Made by a program: the position numbers. Source: Mytilus californianus (taxonomy: Eukaryota). Taken from it: a DNA stretch of 64,000 nt. Of this stretch, positions 12,001-42,000 are shown piece after piece; within the stretch, counting starts at the first letter, position 1; each line of letters starts with the position of its first letter. The stretch is from positions 124,186,001 through 124,250,000 of the forward strand of contig NW_026262668.1 in assembly GCF_021869535.1 (NCBI RefSeq), in the 5' to 3' direction.

Positions 12001-15000
12001 GTTAATGTGTGGTCTTTTAATGGACCTTGCATTGAATAATGAGACTTTAGCAATTGTAACAGTCTGAACAATGACCTGTAGATGTGTGGTCTTTTAAATA
12101 CCTTACATTGAATAATGAGACTTTAGCAATTGTAAAAGTCTGAACAATGACCTGTTAATGTGTGGTCTTTTAATGGACCTTACATTGAATAATGAGACTT
12201 CAGCAATTGTAACAGTCTGAACAATGACCTGTTAATGTGTGGTCTTTTAATGGACCTTACATTGAATAATGAGACTTTAGCAATTGTAACAGTCTGAACA
12301 ATGACCTGTAGATGTGTGGTCTTTTAATGGACCTTACATTGAATAATGAGACTTTAGCAATTGAAACAGTCTGAACAATGATCTGTAGATGTGTGATCTT
12401 TTAATGGACCTTACATTGAATAATGAGACTTTAGCAATAATGTAAAAGTCTGAACAATGATCTGTAGATGTGTGATCTTTTAATGGACCTTACATTGAAG
12501 TATGAGACTGCCTATGGTAAAAGCCTGAACAGGACCCTGTAGATGTGCTATCTTTTGATGGACCTTACCTTAGAGTATAAGACTAAAGAATTTTTTTTAG
12601 TTGTTTAATGATTGTCAATGAGACAACTATCCATGAAGACCAAAATATGAGGATGTAAATGACCATAGCTCACTGTAAGGCATTCAAAATAATAAAAATC
12701 TGAACAGTATAATTTGTTGGCTGTGAAAGGCACCAACATGAACAAATTGTGAAACAGTTCCAAAGAGAAAACCAACAGCCTGATTTATGGGGAAAAAATT
12801 TAATGAAAAACATATACTGCAACATCAAAAGACAACCACTGAATTACAGACTCCTGTCAGGGGACAGGCACTTAAACAATATGTCAGGGCTTACTCTCTC
12901 CATAACCTGGGACAATGATGTAACAGCACAGAACAAACTGTGAAATTCACTAAGGCTCAAGTTACAGAATATAGAACTTGATGATTATGTAAGGAAAAAT
13001 GAATTAGAACCAATAAAAATCTTTCTTGGACACATCTTTCTTAGAATATTTTTATATAGCACTAACTTCAGTTAGAATATTTTTATATAGCACTAACTTC
13101 AGCAGAAAAAATTATTTTCAGAAAGAACAAACAATTTGTAAATAACATGTTTTCACTGATGTTTGCAGGTACAATTATTCCATAAGAACACCAATGGTAG
13201 TTTTATAGCCAGCTCTAACATCAACAGGATACCAGTACAGGCATTCCAACATGGATCTGAAGTTATCTGATCTATACTTGTTTTCTTTGATGGTAATAAT
13301 TAGTTGGACAGGAATTTTATCACAAAAGCGTAAGTGAGACAAACTTTCTGTGAATGTTTTACTTTTTAGTTTTTATGAGGTGAGATATATATCCAATTAT
13401 CAATGCAAACAGACAAACTTAAAAAAAATATGATTGGTTTTGTGCCAAAATATAATTTGTGTTGTAACATATGACTATCTTGGTTCTAAATTAAGATTTG
13501 GCATTTACATGATATTATTTTCAGGTGTTTCATTATATAAATGTTAGGATTTTATTTTATTCTAGTATTACAGAAAGATTAGTGAAAAATCAGACATCAA
13601 TTTTTATACGACCGCAAAAATATTTTGGGGTCATATAATGCTATCACGTCGTCGTCAGCGTTGTTGTCGTCCGAAGACATTTGGTTTTCAGACAATAACT
13701 TTAGTTTAAGTGTATGGATCTCTATGAAATTAAACAAAAGGTTCAATACCACAAAAGGAAGGTTGGGATTGTTTTTGGGGGTGATGGTCCCAACCGTTTA
13801 GGAAATTAGGGGGCCAAAAAGGTGCCCAAAACAAGCATTTTTCTAGTTTCAGGACAATAACTTGTGTATAAGTATTTTGATTGCTCTGAAATTGTACCAC
13901 AAGGTTCAATACCACAAGTAGAAGGTTGGGATTCATGGGGTAATTGCCCAAACCATTCAGGAATTAGGGGCTAAAAAGGGTCTAAAACAAATATTTTTCT
14001 AGTTTTCAGACAATAACTTGTGTTTATGTGTACTGATGTCTCTTAAATTGTACCTTATTGTACGAAAAGAAAATTTCTTCAAACGTTATATTTTTTTGGG
14101 GTCACAATTTATTTTGCTAATTCTTTGTATATAGTCTGAAAACAGATTTACTAAGTATTGTGCAACAGCACAGTGTATTGCACAAAAGCAAGAAATCCTC
14201 AATTGAATATAAATTCAAATCATATAACCAATTTCAAGTTCTTTAACTACATTTATTTTGTGTTATATGTAAACTAGGCACAATGTCCACATTGTCTACA
14301 AAATTTGTTAACAAAATTCTAAACTGTAAAAAATATATAGTTACTAGCATTGTATACTTATATACATTGTATAAATAGTTCATGTAATAAACTTGAATTC
14401 AAATATAGAAAAATATTGTAACCCAACAACATAGTCATGTTAGTGAATTGTTTGAATATTTTTATTTGGGATGCAAAGGCCTTATAGAGGTATACTTTGT
14501 TCTAGTTCAATAATTAAAGCCAAATTAAAGCTGTTGTGAAGAAAAAATTAATTGAAGGGACAACTGCTTCATTTTTTGGTACAGCTGATAATTGACTTTT
14601 CATTGAGAGGGTCTCTGCCCTCCAGAATGTTGTACCCATTAATGTTTCACATCTGCAAGGTCTGCCTCCTTGTATATGATTGAAATATACAAGCCCTGTT
14701 GTTTGTTTATTACTTATGTAAATTATGACTGAGTATGGATCAAGTGTTAATGTTGTAGAAATATCTATCATCCTAAAGACAAGAAACTCAGCATCTGTTC
14801 TGAGGTAACTGTAAGGTAGATATTAGAGAGGATAGATAAGGGGGCAATAGGTTTTTATACGACCGCAAAAAAAAAATCTGATTTATATCAAATTTATAGG
14901 GGGAAAATTCAAAAGATGTATACTATAAACTCTACTATTTATACTTTAGAGTGACACAAAAAGGTCATGCACTTTCTATTTCTGTGGGTCAAGATATGCT

Positions 15001-39000: not shown

Positions 39001-42000
39001 TATATTCATATATATATATTTCTTATTATTTTAGATAAAAACTATGAGGACACGAAAACACAAAACCCAGACAATTGGTTTGGTAGGACAGGCCGTATAG
39101 ATCCTGATGATCCATATGATCAAGGAATTGCCCCTGAACCCTTTAATCCAACGTCGGAAAATGATCAGATTATACCATATGGAGAAAACAATAAAGATGA
39201 AACAATCGATTACAGTGATGTGGATTTTACTGGCAAAACACAGGGTGAAAATACAAGTCAGAAAAAATCTGCTGAAAAGGATATAGATGTTTGGACTATA
39301 TATATTATTGTAGGCTCAGTGGCAGGAGGGGTGCTGTTAATTGGAGTAGTGGCAATTGTTGTGGCATTATGTTGTAACAGATATGAGGATGATGGTTATA
39401 AACACACAAATGTTTGACTATAGGAGAGATTTCCATGGTAACAAACATTTAAAGAGGAATACTTGAGGAAATTTTGCCATGGAAATTGAAGACCTAAGGT
39501 TTAATAAACCTAATCATGTAGACATTGAAATACATTATAGCATTGTTGTTGTTGATAGTTAAAAGACACAAATATCAAGATGTACTTTAGATATTAAAAA
39601 AAGTGCAATAAATATTTCTATAGTATACTTAAAGACACTTGATGTGCAAGAAGTATACTTTTCTATTCGTTTGTATAAACTTTGAAGACACTAGATGTGC
39701 AAGAAGTTTACATTTATAGAAGTATATTTATTTATATAAATGTGTAAACTTTGTAAGACTATCTTCCTAACAAAGGTGCAGACCAATTTGACAATACACA
39801 CATGACTATTATCAATTACATATATAGTATGTGTAATATAGTGTATTGTTACAAAGTTGTATAGTAACTGGGATTTTTATAGGCTATACAAAGAGGATGA
39901 GGACATATTAGAGTGATCCTAATTACATTGTATGATCCAATGTATCGCATAGAAGCAGGTAGATATATAATCCTGGTATATTTATATGCCTGTAGATTCT
40001 TGACACTGTAAGGAATCCCGTGTTTATGTGGGTTTAATTGATTGGTTTTATAAGAATACATGTCATATTTGTCTTAGCATTCGATATATAAAACAAGATG
40101 GTTACTGCAAGAGTAGAATACATTTGTTATGTAAATAAGAATAATAAACCACAACACCTGATTTAATGGTCACTTAAACTTTACATGTAGGCTGTGTTAT
40201 TTGCTAGACCATCAAAATTGATCTAAAAATAAGTATATAACTATATGATTTACAGTACATTGTTATCATAGAAACTGACAATTACTAGAAAGCAAATGCA
40301 TGAATGAAAAAATATGGACAGAATCCCAAAATGATATGGAAAGGTGTTAAACCTTGGTATAATTTCATTTTCAGTACCGGGGGTAATTGTTCATAGTTAT
40401 CTAAATCAATCTTGCCTATTTGTTCTGAGTTAGGATATTAGTTTGATTATTTCAAACCAAAAGGATAGTGCTTTGTTTATTTTCAGTGAAGATGCACTGA
40501 AATATCTGGAATATAAAACACAATTTAATCATTTAGTAAATGAAAATCCATTACGGTCAAAGAATGCAGTGTTCACATTTTGCCCTGAATGATGTATTTT
40601 TTGTTTTTTAAAGGGAGATAATTAGACTTTTTTTTAAAGATTTTTTGGTCAGTTATTTGAGTCCATTGAAATTTTTTAAAACCACAATTACATTACATAT
40701 TTTAATTGAGTTTTTGTTTTATGGAAGGGAAATATTAAAGAATTTTTATTCTCAGAAGTTATTTTAACACCTAACATGACATTATTTTCACTGTTATCAT
40801 TCAAATCAGGGATTTTATAAAGAATAATAATACTCAACTGTTTATTGACTGTTTGTTGTAATTTTGTTTAATTATTTATGAGTGTTAATGTGTTTTGTGT
40901 TTTATATATGGTCATATATGAGCCAACAATATTCAGTATGTATGCTATGATTACTGGTTTCTTCGGTTTATATCAGGATTTTTTTTTAGAGAAAAAAAGA
41001 TATGTCTTACAATTTTCACTTGTACTTTTTTAAAAACATTTTGAAACAGGATTGATATTTGTATCCACTTACATTATTACCAAAAACCTGAAGTTCACAG
41101 AAATATTCTATTGTGATATTAACATTGTTACATAGTGATAACATTGTTACATATTGTTAACATTGTTACATATTGATAACATTGTTACATATTGTTAACA
41201 TTGTTACATATTGATAACATTGTTACATATTGATAACATTGTTACATATTGTTAACATTGTTACATATTGATAACATTGTATTTATATTTTGACAATCAT
41301 TTGTTACATCATACATTGTACATTGTCTATCAGCATTCACTACATAACATTTAAGAAATCCTTTCTGTACACATACATACTTTTAAAAAAATATCAGTGA
41401 AATGTTTAACTTTTATCAACCAGTGATGGAATCGAACTACAGTAAAATTTTAGAAACGGCTTATCTTGGACATGCAGAGGTTCCTACATGGCTTGATTTA
41501 GGCAAAAATTATTTCATCTTTTTCTACAGATTTTAAAAATTATTTTATTGTCTCGATTAGGTTCTGGTTATATACCTAGTGAATGGTATTATTTTTTAAA
41601 CTTATTTTACATAACAAAAAATACTGTACTTTTGGTACATGATTAGTAGAGAGCTCAGTTGTGCAAACTTTTAGGCAGTTACTGTAATACCAAAGAATTG
41701 TTCACTTAATAACACAACGGGTAATTTATTTTGAATAGCTTTGATATTTTATTTTCATCTACTTGTTTAAGATTTATTTGATATTGTAAAGATTGAAACA
41801 GTTGTTTTATAGTGTTTATAAGTATTTGCATGATTTGTTATGTATAAGTTATGTCTTGGCTAAATGGATTTGTTCAGCACTCCTGCAACTAAGAAATACT
41901 CATGAACTTTGTATATATTTTTGCCTCTGAAAATGTGGCATATATAAGTTTATCATTTACAGCTGACTAAGATTGTCTTCATCTTCATAATCTAATTGAA

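What the first reader, a model, noticed from the sequence alone, without database searches (positions are those of the whole stretch)
13251..39417. Two-Ig, kinase-less FGFR-like receptor with a mucin-like stalk: candidate FGF decoy or co-receptor
Seen: six exons splice in frame into signal peptide, D2-like Ig, D3-like Ig, an ectodomain linker of roughly 200 aa, a TM helix and a 13-aa tail. I found no D1 exon and no kinase exons. Known: vertebrate FGFRL1 and planarian nou-darake are kinase-less FGF traps, and vertebrate FGFRL1 has three Ig domains and no long Thr stalk. Inference: this looks like a mollusc variant that raises the D2-D3 ligand-binding unit on an O-glycosylated stalk, in a syndecan- or mucin-like way.
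Basis: partly seen in the sequence, partly recalled or inferred. Interest (0 to 1): 0.65.

Follow-up and report, generated by a model that had tools for sequence, protein, structure and literature searches.

The report
Kinase-less two-Ig FGFR-like mussel receptor
This is a real, expressed mussel gene for a membrane protein that keeps only the ligand-binding pair of domains of a fibroblast growth factor receptor, set on a long sugar-bearing and charged stalk with no kinase, so it probably modulates rather than transmits growth-factor signals.

Summary
On the + strand, 13251-39417, canonical AG/GT exons encode a signal peptide, two Ig domains (each split over two exons), a linker of about 203 aa, a TM helix and a 13-aa tail. 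There is no D1 or kinase exon anywhere in the 64 kb.

Two amendments:
- A 21-nt cassette microexon (20856-20876, EKHENED) was missed.
- The D3 N-half exon starts at 33504.

The locus matches Mytilus californianus RefSeq "FGFR3-like" X1 (472 aa) and X2 (465 aa) at 100% within exon bounds wherever the exon was matched cleanly. Short contigs carry the whole spliced ORF.

The Ig pair is specifically FGFR D2-D3:
- Profile score is 126-127.5 bits for FGFRs, against 80.1 bits or less for any other Ig pair examined.
- The tree split has 100/98 support.
- Foldseek ranks 1-30 are all FGFR.

The same build occurs in oysters.

Only 54 aa of the linker is mucin-like. The rest is acidic, polylysine and acidic blocks. 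The TM helix and the C-terminal T-x-V tail are the most conserved parts after the Ig pair.

FGF binding, and decoy versus co-receptor action, remain inference. The relation to FGFRL1 could not be tested. I found no paper on this family; databases carry only automatic names.

The parts
13251..13329 (+). Coding exon 1: start codon and signal peptide (MDLKLSDLYLFSLMVIISWTGILSQK plus 1 nt). Ends in phase 1, donor gtaagt.
   Evidence: Sequence read. The best 11-residue hydropathy window is 2.4. There is an in-frame stop 15 codons upstream with no ATG between. RefSeq isoform X2 (P0278) residues 1-26 match at 26/26. P0009 residues 1-24 match at 67%, E 6.6e-6.
20856..20876 (+). Coding exon 2: a 21-nt cassette microexon, phase 1 to 1, adding EKHENED. 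The split codons read H and D.
   Evidence: Exact pattern match flanked by ttacag| and |gtaatt. It is the only difference between M. californianus isoforms X1 and X2. Unnamed members of 460 aa include it and members of 453 aa lack it.
28636..28805 (+). Coding exon 3: the invariant WKPKSRP motif and the N-half of the D2-like Ig domain. Ends in phase 0.
   Evidence: Pfam Ig_3 6.4e-9 and I-set 1.7e-8. In the PDB search FGFR3 D2 aligns as one stretch, 9-52 to 123-167, 43.1 bits. P0278 matches 56/56.
32647..32770 (+). Coding exon 4: C-half of D2 (YSLIMKDAQVDDKGDYQCIVTNVHGSLNFTFYVTVI). Ends in phase 1, donor gtaagt.
   Evidence: Pfam I-set 1.7e-6, profile positions 54-90. FGFR2 D2 C-half aligns as a single stretch, 38 bits, 7.4e-9. 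P0278 matches 41/41.
33504..33667 (+). Coding exon 5: D2-D3 linker (KLTWPLE) and N-half of D3. Ends in phase 0.
   Evidence: Pfam Ig_3 7.5e-7. The acceptor at 33504 is fixed by KLTWPLEVEEPQ in all relatives. Taken alone in the PDB search this exon is not diagnostic: Robo and NCAM come first and FGFR1 scores 1.1e-4.
34754..35231 (+). Coding exon 6. It holds the C-half of D3 (34754-34879), the Thr/Pro stalk (34877-35038), an acidic patch (35039-35095) and a polylysine block (35096-35203). Ends in phase 1.
   Evidence: In the PDB search the top 18 rows for the Ig part are all FGFR1-4 D3 C-half, 1.9e-10 to 7.4e-10. Composition was counted. P0278 matches 159/159.
39035..39417 (+). Coding exon 7. 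It holds the acidic linker, the TM helix (about 39292-39375), the 13-aa tail CC|NRYEDDGYKHTNV (39376-39414) and the stop (39415-39417).
   Evidence: Translation. The best 19-residue hydropathy window is 2.88, at VAGGVLLIGVVAIVVALCC. The TM and tail are nearly invariant between mussel-type and oyster-type proteins. The pre-TM plus TM aligns to the TM region of the Lineus FGFR, E 0.002.

Best explanation
SHOWN. This is an intact, spliced and alternatively spliced gene. It encodes a type I membrane protein of 472 or 465 aa. Its only folded part is a pair of Ig domains homologous over their full length to D2 and D3 of FGF receptors, the unit that binds FGF and heparan sulfate in those receptors. 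It has no D1 and no kinase. It ends 13 residues after the membrane.

Between D3 and the membrane lies a linker of about 203 aa of low complexity. In order: a 54-aa Thr/Pro mucin-type segment, an acidic aromatic patch, a 36-aa polylysine block, then an acidic stretch. The same order of parts is kept in oysters. The TM helix and tail are the best-conserved parts after the Ig pair.

INFERRED. The protein sits on the cell surface, holds the D2-D3 unit away from the membrane on a glycosylated stalk, and binds FGF ligand, probably with heparan sulfate. It cannot phosphorylate anything. It therefore acts as a membrane-tethered modulator of FGF signalling.

Two modes are possible. It may be a ligand trap, or a non-signalling partner that presents ligand to, or pairs with, the single kinase-bearing FGFR. 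The conserved TM helix, the juxtamembrane Cys-Cys and the C-terminal T-x-V (a class I PDZ-ligand pattern, recalled) suggest anchoring to a membrane or cortical partner rather than a passive decoy.

The family most likely arose from an FGFR-type gene by loss of D1 and of everything after the TM exon, plus growth of the linker.
For: Gene reality:
- Splice sites are canonical and the frame is kept.
- RefSeq X1 and X2 of M. californianus match the window's exons at 100% within exon bounds wherever the exon was matched cleanly; in X1 the D2 N-half HSP ran past the exon border, so that exon was matched cleanly only in X2.
- Unnamed proteins of 453-474 aa come from contigs of only 1.7-4.8 kb. Such contigs cannot hold 24.7 kb of introns, so they are spliced transcripts. 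This last step is inference.

FGFR identity of the Ig pair:
- The family profile A1 scores fish and nemertean FGFR D2-D3 at 125.8-127.5 bits in one envelope. The best of all other envelopes reaches 80.1 bits or less. In all, 2873 envelopes in 269 proteins were scored, family and FGFR rows included.
- hhalign against the kinase-bearing Lineus FGFR gives probability 99.87, E 1e-31, 191 columns, 37% identity, over residues 148-351.
- An ML tree of 47 Ig pairs puts family plus FGFR on one side of a branch with support 100/98.
- The AF2 model has pLDDT 81. Foldseek ranks 1-30 in the PDB are all FGFR1-4 D2-D3, 7.6e-19 to 2.1e-14. The first other protein scores 3.0e-14.
- Taken exon by exon, three of the four Ig half-exons give FGFR as the best single-stretch PDB match.

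No kinase or D1.

TM region: the best BLASTP HSP of the last-exon peptide with the Lineus FGFR is its pre-TM plus TM, 33% over 45 aa, E 0.002.

Conservation of the whole build is shown.

D2, D3 and their linker suffice for ligand binding in FGFRs, while D1 is autoinhibitory (PMC6379346, passage read). The kinase-less FGFRL1 binds FGF2 and heparan sulfate and was proposed as a decoy (PMC2754479, Background read).
Against: - No binding datum of any kind exists. I could not obtain a Mytilus FGF, so no complex was modelled.
- Ligand-contact residues were not checked against a structure. The D3 C'-E loop, a specificity determinant in FGFRs, is the low-confidence part of the model (residues 141-152, pLDDT under 50) and varies in length within the family.
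- The D3 N-half exon alone does not single out FGFR.
- In the tree the family is sister to all four FGFRs rather than nested beside the lophotrochozoan one. An FGFRL1-side lineage would also fall there. The nested position is not rejected (AU p 0.307).
- Mytilus paralogue models carry fn3 domains and other C-termini, which is more typical of adhesion IgSF proteins.
- The tail is not universal. The C. virginica models end inside the TM, Saccostrea has a different 27-aa tail, and one mussel cluster reads A-N-V.
- The polylysine block has no parallel in FGFRs and its role is a guess.
Confidence: 0.55

Rival explanations
1. The family is the bivalve branch of FGFRL1/nou-darake, or a duplicate of it. 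It would be a two-Ig derivative like the insect FGFRL1 candidates, not a truncated FGFR. It would work as FGFRL1 does.
For: - It has no kinase, and it has a signal peptide, Ig loops, a TM and a non-kinase tail, as FGFRL1 is described (PMC2754479 Background).
- Insect candidates have two Ig loops (same paper, section 6).
- In my tree the family lies outside the clade of cnidarian, nemertean and fish FGFRs (96/83). That is where an FGFRL1-side lineage would also fall.
Against: - Lottia already has a three-Ig FGFRL1 orthologue with IgII in a single exon. Here D2 is split by a phase-0 intron, as I recall for FGFR genes. That recollection was not checked, because the paper on FGFR intron positions is not held.
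- Two word-based searches covered the FGFRL1 length range (257-819 aa, 346-2000 aa). They returned named FGFRs at 118-176 bits but no protein named FGFRL1. This is weak evidence, because candidates must share exact 5-mers.
- The TM region aligns to an FGFR TM region.
Confidence: 0.15
2. The FGFR-type Ig pair has been re-used for something other than FGF. On this view the protein is an adhesion, recognition or matrix-binding molecule. Its mucin stalk, polylysine block and PDZ-type tail would do the work, and it would have no role in FGF signalling.
For: - No ligand residue was verified.
- The family has expanded in Mytilus into models with two fn3 domains or other C-termini (P0013, P0015, P0016).
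- The linker is far longer and more charged than in any FGFR.
- The TM and tail are under stronger constraint than the Ig pair: nearly identical versus about 50% between mussel-type and oyster-type proteins.
Against: - About 37% identity to FGFR D2-D3 is kept over 191 columns, including the P-x-W motif before D2 and the VGNYFG stretch in D3 shared with the Lineus FGFR.
- 78 of 196 Ig-pair positions are invariant between mussel-type and oyster-type proteins. This argues that the fold and its surfaces are still under selection, but it does not say for which ligand.
Confidence: 0.25
3. The feature is a gene-model artefact or a decaying truncated copy of an FGFR, that is, a pseudogene fragment.
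For: Some database models of relatives are clearly messy. Examples are the duplicated D3 in P0013 and P0014, the partial P0016, and C. virginica models that end inside the TM.
Against: - The frame is open through seven exons with canonical sites.
- Whole ORFs lie on short contigs in eight 90% clusters.
- Both splice forms of the microexon are seen.
- The build is conserved between mussels and oysters, with a nearly invariant TM.
Confidence: 0.02

Closest known systems
Canonical FGF receptors. The nearest found is the kinase-bearing 'FGFR2-like' of the nemertean Lineus longissimus (P0177, 820 aa). Vertebrate FGFR1-4 are also close.
   Same: - D2, the D2-D3 linker and D3 are homologous over their whole length: 37% identity, hhalign E 1e-31, 126-127.5 bits, Foldseek ranks 1-30.
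- The P-x-W motif before D2 is shared.
- There is a single TM after D3, with a weak colinear match of the pre-TM plus TM.
- D3 is split into two exons, as in FGFR1-3 (legend of Fig. 1 of PMC3238399).
   Different: - No D1.
- No tyrosine kinase; the tail is 13 aa.
- About 203 aa of mucin and charge-block linker stand where FGFRs have a short juxtamembrane stretch.
- There is no second, alternative D3 C-half exon in the window.
FGFRL1 (FGFR5) and planarian nou-darake
   Same: These are kinase-less, membrane-bound, FGFR-related ectodomains. FGFRL1 was proposed to be an FGF decoy and binds FGF2 and heparan sulfate (PMC2754479).
   Different: - FGFRL1 has three Ig loops, including in the mollusc Lottia.
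- In FGFRL1 each of IgI and IgII lies in one exon.
- The papers read describe no Thr stalk and no polylysine block.
- Orthology could not be tested here.
Two-Ig (D1-less) and secreted splice forms of vertebrate FGFRs
   Same: They have the same minimal D2-D3 ligand-binding unit. An acidic insert before D2 (here the optional EKHENED) recalls the acid box.
   Different: Those are isoforms of kinase genes. Here the whole gene lacks D1 and kinase exons, and the state is fixed in at least two bivalve orders.
Syndecans and cell-surface mucins (likeness in function only)
   Same: - An extended, probably glycosylated ectodomain.
- The strongest conservation lies in the TM and a short tail that ends in a PDZ-type motif. 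The syndecan features are recalled.
   Different: - The window's protein has no Ser-Gly glycosaminoglycan site. Oyster-type relatives have one E-G-(G)-S-G-N-D.
- There is no sequence similarity.
- Syndecans have no Ig domains.

Membership tests
FGF receptor (receptor tyrosine kinase) | D2-linker-D3 Ig pair homologous to the FGF-binding unit | tested here: met
   - Per-envelope profile scores are 126-127.5 bits for FGFRs, against 80.1 bits or less for all other Ig pairs examined.
- hhalign E 1e-31.
- Tree split 100/98.
- Foldseek ranks 1-30 are all FGFR.
FGF receptor (receptor tyrosine kinase) | Intracellular tyrosine kinase domain | tested here: not met
   - No Pkinase hit in 206 + strand frames (45 aa or more) and 139 - strand frames (50 aa or more).
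- No kinase HSP from three FGFRs at E<=1 over 64 kb.
- All related full-length proteins stop 0-27 aa after the TM.
FGF receptor (receptor tyrosine kinase) | N-terminal D1 and acid box | tested here: not met
   - No HSP specific to D1. The D1 of the Lineus FGFR only cross-hits the D2 exons.
- The signal peptide joins D2 directly or through the 7-aa EKHENED microexon. Calling that an acid box would be over-reading.
FGF receptor (receptor tyrosine kinase) | Binds FGF ligands with heparan sulfate | not testable with these tools
No complex job was sent.
FGFRL1 / nou-darake | Signal peptide, Ig loops, TM and a non-kinase cytoplasmic part | tested here: met
   The description of the family comes from PMC2754479.
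FGFRL1 / nou-darake | Three Ig loops (two only in insect candidates) | tested here: not met
   Two Ig domains here and in all 11 family rows. Lottia FGFRL1 has three.
FGFRL1 / nou-darake | Groups with FGFRL1 in a tree or by reciprocal best hit | not testable with these tools
   No FGFRL1 sequence was returned, and none appeared among the 60 PDB rows listed. The family's place as sister to the sampled FGFRs leaves this open.
FGFRL1 / nou-darake | Gene organisation: each Ig loop in one exon, with IgIII split in Lottia and Capitella, and phase-1 borders | tested here: not met
   D2 is split by a phase-0 intron at 28805/32647, and D3 likewise at 33667/34754. The domain borders themselves are phase 1. 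The comparison is with section 7 of PMC2754479.
Mucin-type stalk | Thr/Ser/Pro-rich segment that carries O-glycans | tested here: inconclusive
   The composition fits: 44 T, 8 P and 2 S in 54 aa, and it is kept in all relatives. Glycosylation itself cannot be tested here. The Pfam Mucin hit on the oyster protein is below its cut-off.
Syndecan-type proteoglycan | Ser-Gly glycosaminoglycan attachment sites and the syndecan cytoplasmic motifs | tested here: not met
   No SG dipeptide in any of the seven exon peptides. The tail has no likeness to the recalled EFYA end.

The most novel reading that the evidence does not exclude
Pteriomorph bivalves may have turned an FGFR into a 'syndecan-ised' receptor. 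The FGF/heparan-sulfate-binding D2-D3 unit would be kept. The kinase would be replaced by a palmitoylatable, PDZ-binding stub and a conserved TM helix. A built-in acidic and polylysine charge switch would sit on a mucin stalk.

On this reading the protein is not a passive decoy. It would be a second, kinase-independent output or presentation arm of FGF signalling. It would capture ligand far from the membrane and couple it to cortical scaffolds or to the single FGFR. The optional acidic microexon would tune self-inhibition as the acid box does in FGFRs.
Probability: 0.12. Interest if true: 0.75.

Novelty: new variant of a known kind. Interest (0 to 1): 0.5.

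Why it matters
Surveys of mollusc and spiralian FGF signalling count receptors by the presence of a kinase. The scallop study screened only genes with both PTKc and Ig domains and concluded there is a single Fgfr in molluscs (PMC11814522, passages read). The brachiopod, phoronid and annelid papers I looked at treat only kinase-bearing FGFRs. Such screens cannot see a conserved kinase-less FGFR-type protein.

If this protein binds FGF, it would be a lineage-specific regulator of a pathway that spiralians use for mesoderm and axis formation. 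It would also be a second, independent case beside FGFRL1 of an FGFR ectodomain kept without its kinase.

On the practical side, the automatic names are misleading for annotation transfer. They include 'FGFR3-like', 'FGFR2', 'FGFR4-like', 'twitchin-like' and 'receptor protein-tyrosine kinase'.

Tried and rejected
1. The acceptor at 33522 is in frame and was my first model. I rejected it for 33504 once relatives showed KLTWPLE.

2. The ESM Atlas look-up of the Ig pair gave only generic Ig clusters.

3. The exhaustive representative search with profile A1 found 31,530 proteins at E<=1e-3. Of its 150 listed hits, 148 were giant multi-Ig proteins that win by summing many domains, and 2 were family members. 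It was useless for finding FGFR or FGFRL1 directly. I re-used those proteins as a negative set for per-envelope scoring.

4. I looked for FGFRL1 sequences to settle FGFR versus FGFRL1. None came back, and all capped protein searches are now spent.

5. I looked for fn3 exons like those of the M. trossulus paralogue, for a second D3 C-half exon (IIIb/IIIc style), and for extra family copies in the window. None was found.

6. The paper on conserved FGFR intron positions and a review are not held. The statement that FGFR D2 is split into two exons therefore rests on recall.

7. Ser-Gly sites were sought to test the syndecan idea. None is present.

8. The 25-bp satellite in intron 2 gives open frames up to 291 aa with weak Kazal_2 and Hyd_WA hits. 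These are artefacts of the repeat.

9. A PDB look-up of the neighbouring GPCR frame found nothing at 1e-5.

11. The window's exons were never joined. The spliced model as such was not searched, folded or aligned. Supplementary files of the papers were not opened. The FGFRL1 alignments and trees in the additional files of PMC2754479 might bear on the FGFRL1 question.

Full report
WHAT IS IN THE SEQUENCE

The window has no N and is 32.7% G+C. On the + strand, five long stop-to-stop frames between 28.6 and 39.4 kb carry the coding signal. I scanned 206 + strand frames of 45 aa or more against Pfam. Only four hit Ig families, and they pair up as N-half, C-half, N-half, C-half:
- 28623-28910: I-set 1.7e-8
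- 32647-32814: I-set 1.7e-6
- 33503-33691: Ig_3 7.5e-7
- 34739-35254: I-set 2.7e-4, below Pfam's cut-off

No frame hit a kinase. The 139 - strand frames of 50 aa or more gave only a rhodopsin-type GPCR at 54280-55542 and one sub-threshold Ig-like hit.

EXON MODEL

I read the borders directly. The coding exons are:
- 13251-13329
- 20856-20876
- 28636-28805
- 32647-32770
- 33504-33667
- 34754-35231
- 39035-39417

All have AG/GT borders and pyrimidine-rich acceptors. Phases are 1,1,0,1,0,1. The total is 1419 nt, or 472 codons plus stop. Introns are 7526, 7759, 3841, 733, 1086 and 3803 nt.

The ATG at 13251 is the first in frame after a stop 15 codons upstream. Each Ig half-exon holds exactly one Cys.

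Two things needed amending:
- The 21-nt microexon at 20856-20876 was missed. I found it because a related protein carries seven extra residues. A degenerate pattern for six of them matched once, exactly, between ttacag and gtaatt. At the two mismatches allowed, 25 of 100 shuffles also gave a match, so it is the flanks and the isoforms that carry the weight.
- The acceptor of the D3 N-half exon is 33504, not the other in-frame AG at 33522.

The spliced model as such was not searched, aligned or folded. Each exon was handled on its own, and junction codons were checked by eye against database proteins.

EVIDENCE THAT THE GENE IS REAL AND EXPRESSED

I searched the last-exon peptide alone against the protein collection, over longer proteins. 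It found six unnamed proteins of 460-474 aa, all with the same order of parts.

A cluster look-up shows that the closest of them shares a 90% cluster with two Mytilus californianus RefSeq proteins:
- 'fibroblast growth factor receptor 3-like' isoform X1, 472 aa, P0277
- isoform X2, 465 aa, P0278

These two differ only by EKHENED. X2 matches the window's exons 26/26, 56/56, 41/41 and 159/159. For the other two exons the few mismatches fall at the ends of HSPs, where the alignment ran past the exon borders. In X1 the D2 N-half HSP also ran past the exon border (85.5% over 69 positions), so that exon was matched cleanly only in X2. The window is therefore this locus, or a sequence identical to it in its exons.

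Unnamed members of 460 aa and of 453 aa show the same seven-residue difference, so the microexon is a cassette used both ways.

Those proteins come from contigs of 1.7-4.8 kb. The gene has 24.7 kb of introns. I infer that the contigs are spliced transcripts.

WHAT THE IG PAIR IS

Exon by exon against the PDB:
- D3 C-half: the top 18 rows are all FGFR1-4, in register, at 1.9e-10 to 7.4e-10.
- D2 C-half: the best single-stretch match is FGFR2 D2, 38 bits. Proteins listed above it sum several weak domains; the best domain of the top hit is 13.9 bits.
- D2 N-half: FGFR3 D2 aligns as one stretch of 43.1 bits, against 20.3 bits for the best domain of the top multi-Ig hit.
- D3 N-half: not diagnostic. 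Robo and NCAM2 come first, and FGFR1 scores 1.1e-4.

I then built a profile of the Ig pair from six database relatives (A1). Against the PDB it aligns to two-Ig FGFR constructs as one stretch over profile positions 21-195, at 118-127 bits.

Whole-protein scores favour giants with many Ig domains, so I scored envelopes separately. There were 2873 envelopes in 269 proteins, including the 148 giant multi-Ig proteins that topped an exhaustive search of 1.84 billion representatives. The results:
- Family members: 217-377 bits
- Two fish FGFRs and the kinase-bearing Lineus longissimus FGFR: 125.8-127.5 bits
- Every other Ig pair: 80.1 bits or less

Further tests agree:
- hhalign of A1 against the Lineus FGFR gives probability 99.87, E 1e-31, 191 columns, 37% identity, over residues 148-351.
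- An ML tree of 47 Ig pairs puts family plus FGFR on one side of a branch at 100/98. The family itself has 98/97 and the FGFRs 96/83. The rows were 11 family, 4 FGFR, the 22 best-scoring other proteins and 10 named IgSF proteins. I left out the partial P0016 and the other 221 proteins.
- The AF2 model of the pair has pLDDT 81 and pTM 0.60, with residues 141-152 below 50.
- Foldseek against the PDB lists only FGFR1-4 D2-D3 at ranks 1-30, at 7.6e-19 to 2.1e-14. CNTN3 follows at 3.0e-14. TM-scores are only 0.43-0.60, as expected when the hinge angle differs.

That test came out in favour of FGFR.

WHAT IS ABSENT

tblastn of fish, nemertean and cnidarian FGFRs against both strands of the whole window at E<=1 gave HSPs only on the four Ig half-exons, plus a weak one (E 0.89) on the TM. 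Nothing matched the kinase. D1 of the Lineus FGFR only cross-hit the D2 exons. All full-length relatives end 0-27 residues after the TM. The next gene, 14.9 kb downstream, is a GPCR on the other strand.

THE REST OF THE PROTEIN

After D3 the parts run in this order:
- A 54-aa segment with 44 T, 8 P and 2 S
- An acidic aromatic patch (PDWDDDFDD)
- A 36-aa block with 23 K
- 88 aa of net charge -11 (the last-exon linker plus the first TM residues)
- The TM helix
- CC-NRYEDDGYKHTNV

So only about a quarter of the linker is mucin-like.

The full-length alignment of seven relatives keeps this order of blocks in mussel-type and oyster-type proteins. The sequence of the linker drifts, but W-T-I-Y-I-I-V-G-x-V-x-G-x-x-L-L-x-G-x-V-A-I-V-V-x-L-C is invariant.

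The tail CCNR(Y/I)ED..GYKH(T/A)(N/S)V is shared by three mussel-type and three oyster-type clusters. Five of these six have T at position -2. The C. virginica models stop inside the TM, and Saccostrea has a different tail. That T-x-V-COOH is a class I PDZ ligand is recalled, not tested.

The best BLASTP match between the last-exon peptide and the Lineus FGFR is its pre-TM plus TM: 33% identity over 45 aa, E 0.002. This is modest support that the TM exon also descends from an FGFR.

RELATION TO FGFR AND FGFRL1

Bertrand et al. 2009 (PMC2754479; abstract, Background and two Results sections read) report:
- One three-Ig FGFRL1 in Lottia
- Two-Ig forms only in insects
- A gene organisation with each Ig loop in one exon, and IgIII split in Lottia and Capitella

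Here D2 is also split, by a phase-0 intron. I recall that as the FGFR arrangement, but the paper that would confirm it is not held. The split of D3 in FGFR1-3 is stated in PMC3238399 (legend seen).

In my tree the family is sister to the four FGFRs. A place next to the Lineus FGFR is not rejected (AU p 0.307). No FGFRL1 sequence was returned by any search. FGFR-derived versus FGFRL1-side therefore stays open. I lean to FGFR-derived on gene structure, the TM match, and the fact that word-based searches pulled FGFRs but no FGFRL1.

HOW IT PROBABLY WORKS

In FGFRs, D2, the linker and D3 suffice for ligand binding, and D1 with its linker is autoinhibitory (PMC6379346, passage read). FGFRL1 shows that a kinase-less relative can bind FGF2 and heparan sulfate. 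A D1-less, kinase-less D2-D3 on the cell surface is therefore most simply an FGF-binding modulator. The conserved TM and tail argue for a partner in or under the membrane, which favours a co-receptor or scaffolded trap over a passive decoy.

All of this is inference. No binding test, glycosylation test or ligand-residue check was possible.

NOVELTY

The gene model exists in RefSeq and other sets under automatic names:
- 'FGFR3-like', 'FGFR2', 'FGFR4-like'
- 'twitchin-like'
- 'uncharacterized protein LOC111111107'
- 'receptor protein-tyrosine kinase'

I found no description of the family in print:
- FGFRL1+mollusc+FGFR: 4 papers, none on this family.
- FGFR+Crassostrea+kinase+immunoglobulin: 16 papers.
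- kinase-less/FGFR/bivalve: 60 papers hold at least two of the three terms, and none of the 15 listed contains 'kinase-less'.
- FGFRL1+Mytilus: 0 papers.
- LOC111111107: 0 papers.
- The spiralian FGF papers, seen as passages, treat only kinase FGFRs.

Subscription journals and supplements were not searched.

I rate it a new variant of a known kind, namely kinase-less FGFR-related receptors, of moderate interest.

Noticed in passing
window 54280-55542 (-): An uninterrupted 421-aa frame matches Pfam 7tm_1 (7.7e-13, above the cut-off). It looks like a single-exon rhodopsin-family GPCR gene on the opposite strand, 14.9 kb past the stop of the FGFR-like gene. No PDB chain matched at 1e-5.
   Followed up: partly
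window 21155-22335 and 22404-23795 (intron 2): Two large minisatellites: 25 bp x 47 copies (93% matches) and 52 bp x 27 copies (95%). The first is open in all three + frames, up to 291 aa, and gives spurious weak Kazal_2 and Hyd_WA hits.
   Followed up: yes
window 13684-14054, 24490-25061, 30338-30632 and neighbours: Arrays with units of 156-161 bp sit in several introns. Those at 13.7 kb and 24.5 kb have visibly similar consensus units, so they look like copies of one dispersed short repeat. Intron 2 also holds further arrays at 25.2-28.3 kb.
   Followed up: no
database relatives P0013, P0014, P0015, P0016 (Mytilus coruscus, M. trossulus, M. edulis): These are paralogue models with the same Ig pair at 75-95% per exon. 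They carry two N-terminal fn3 domains (P0015), a duplicated D3 (P0013, P0014), or an unrelated C-terminus of about 250 aa with no Pfam match in place of the stalk and TM. P0015 shares the signal-peptide exon, about 85% over 26 aa. This is either a real local expansion of the family or chimeric models. None of these extra parts is in the window.
   Followed up: partly
oyster-type relatives P0010, P0011, P0017 (not in the window): The acidic patch holds E-G-(G)-S-G-N-D after DDED, which looks like a glycosaminoglycan attachment site. The mussel proteins and the window lack it. Saccostrea isoforms lack the polylysine block altogether.
   Followed up: no
window 4872-5039 (-): A 56-aa frame gives a sub-threshold Ig-like hit (Ig_Irg-7, 3.3e-4, 21.1 bits against a cut-off of 27). 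It is probably chance. Nothing else was found in the first 13 kb.
   Followed up: no
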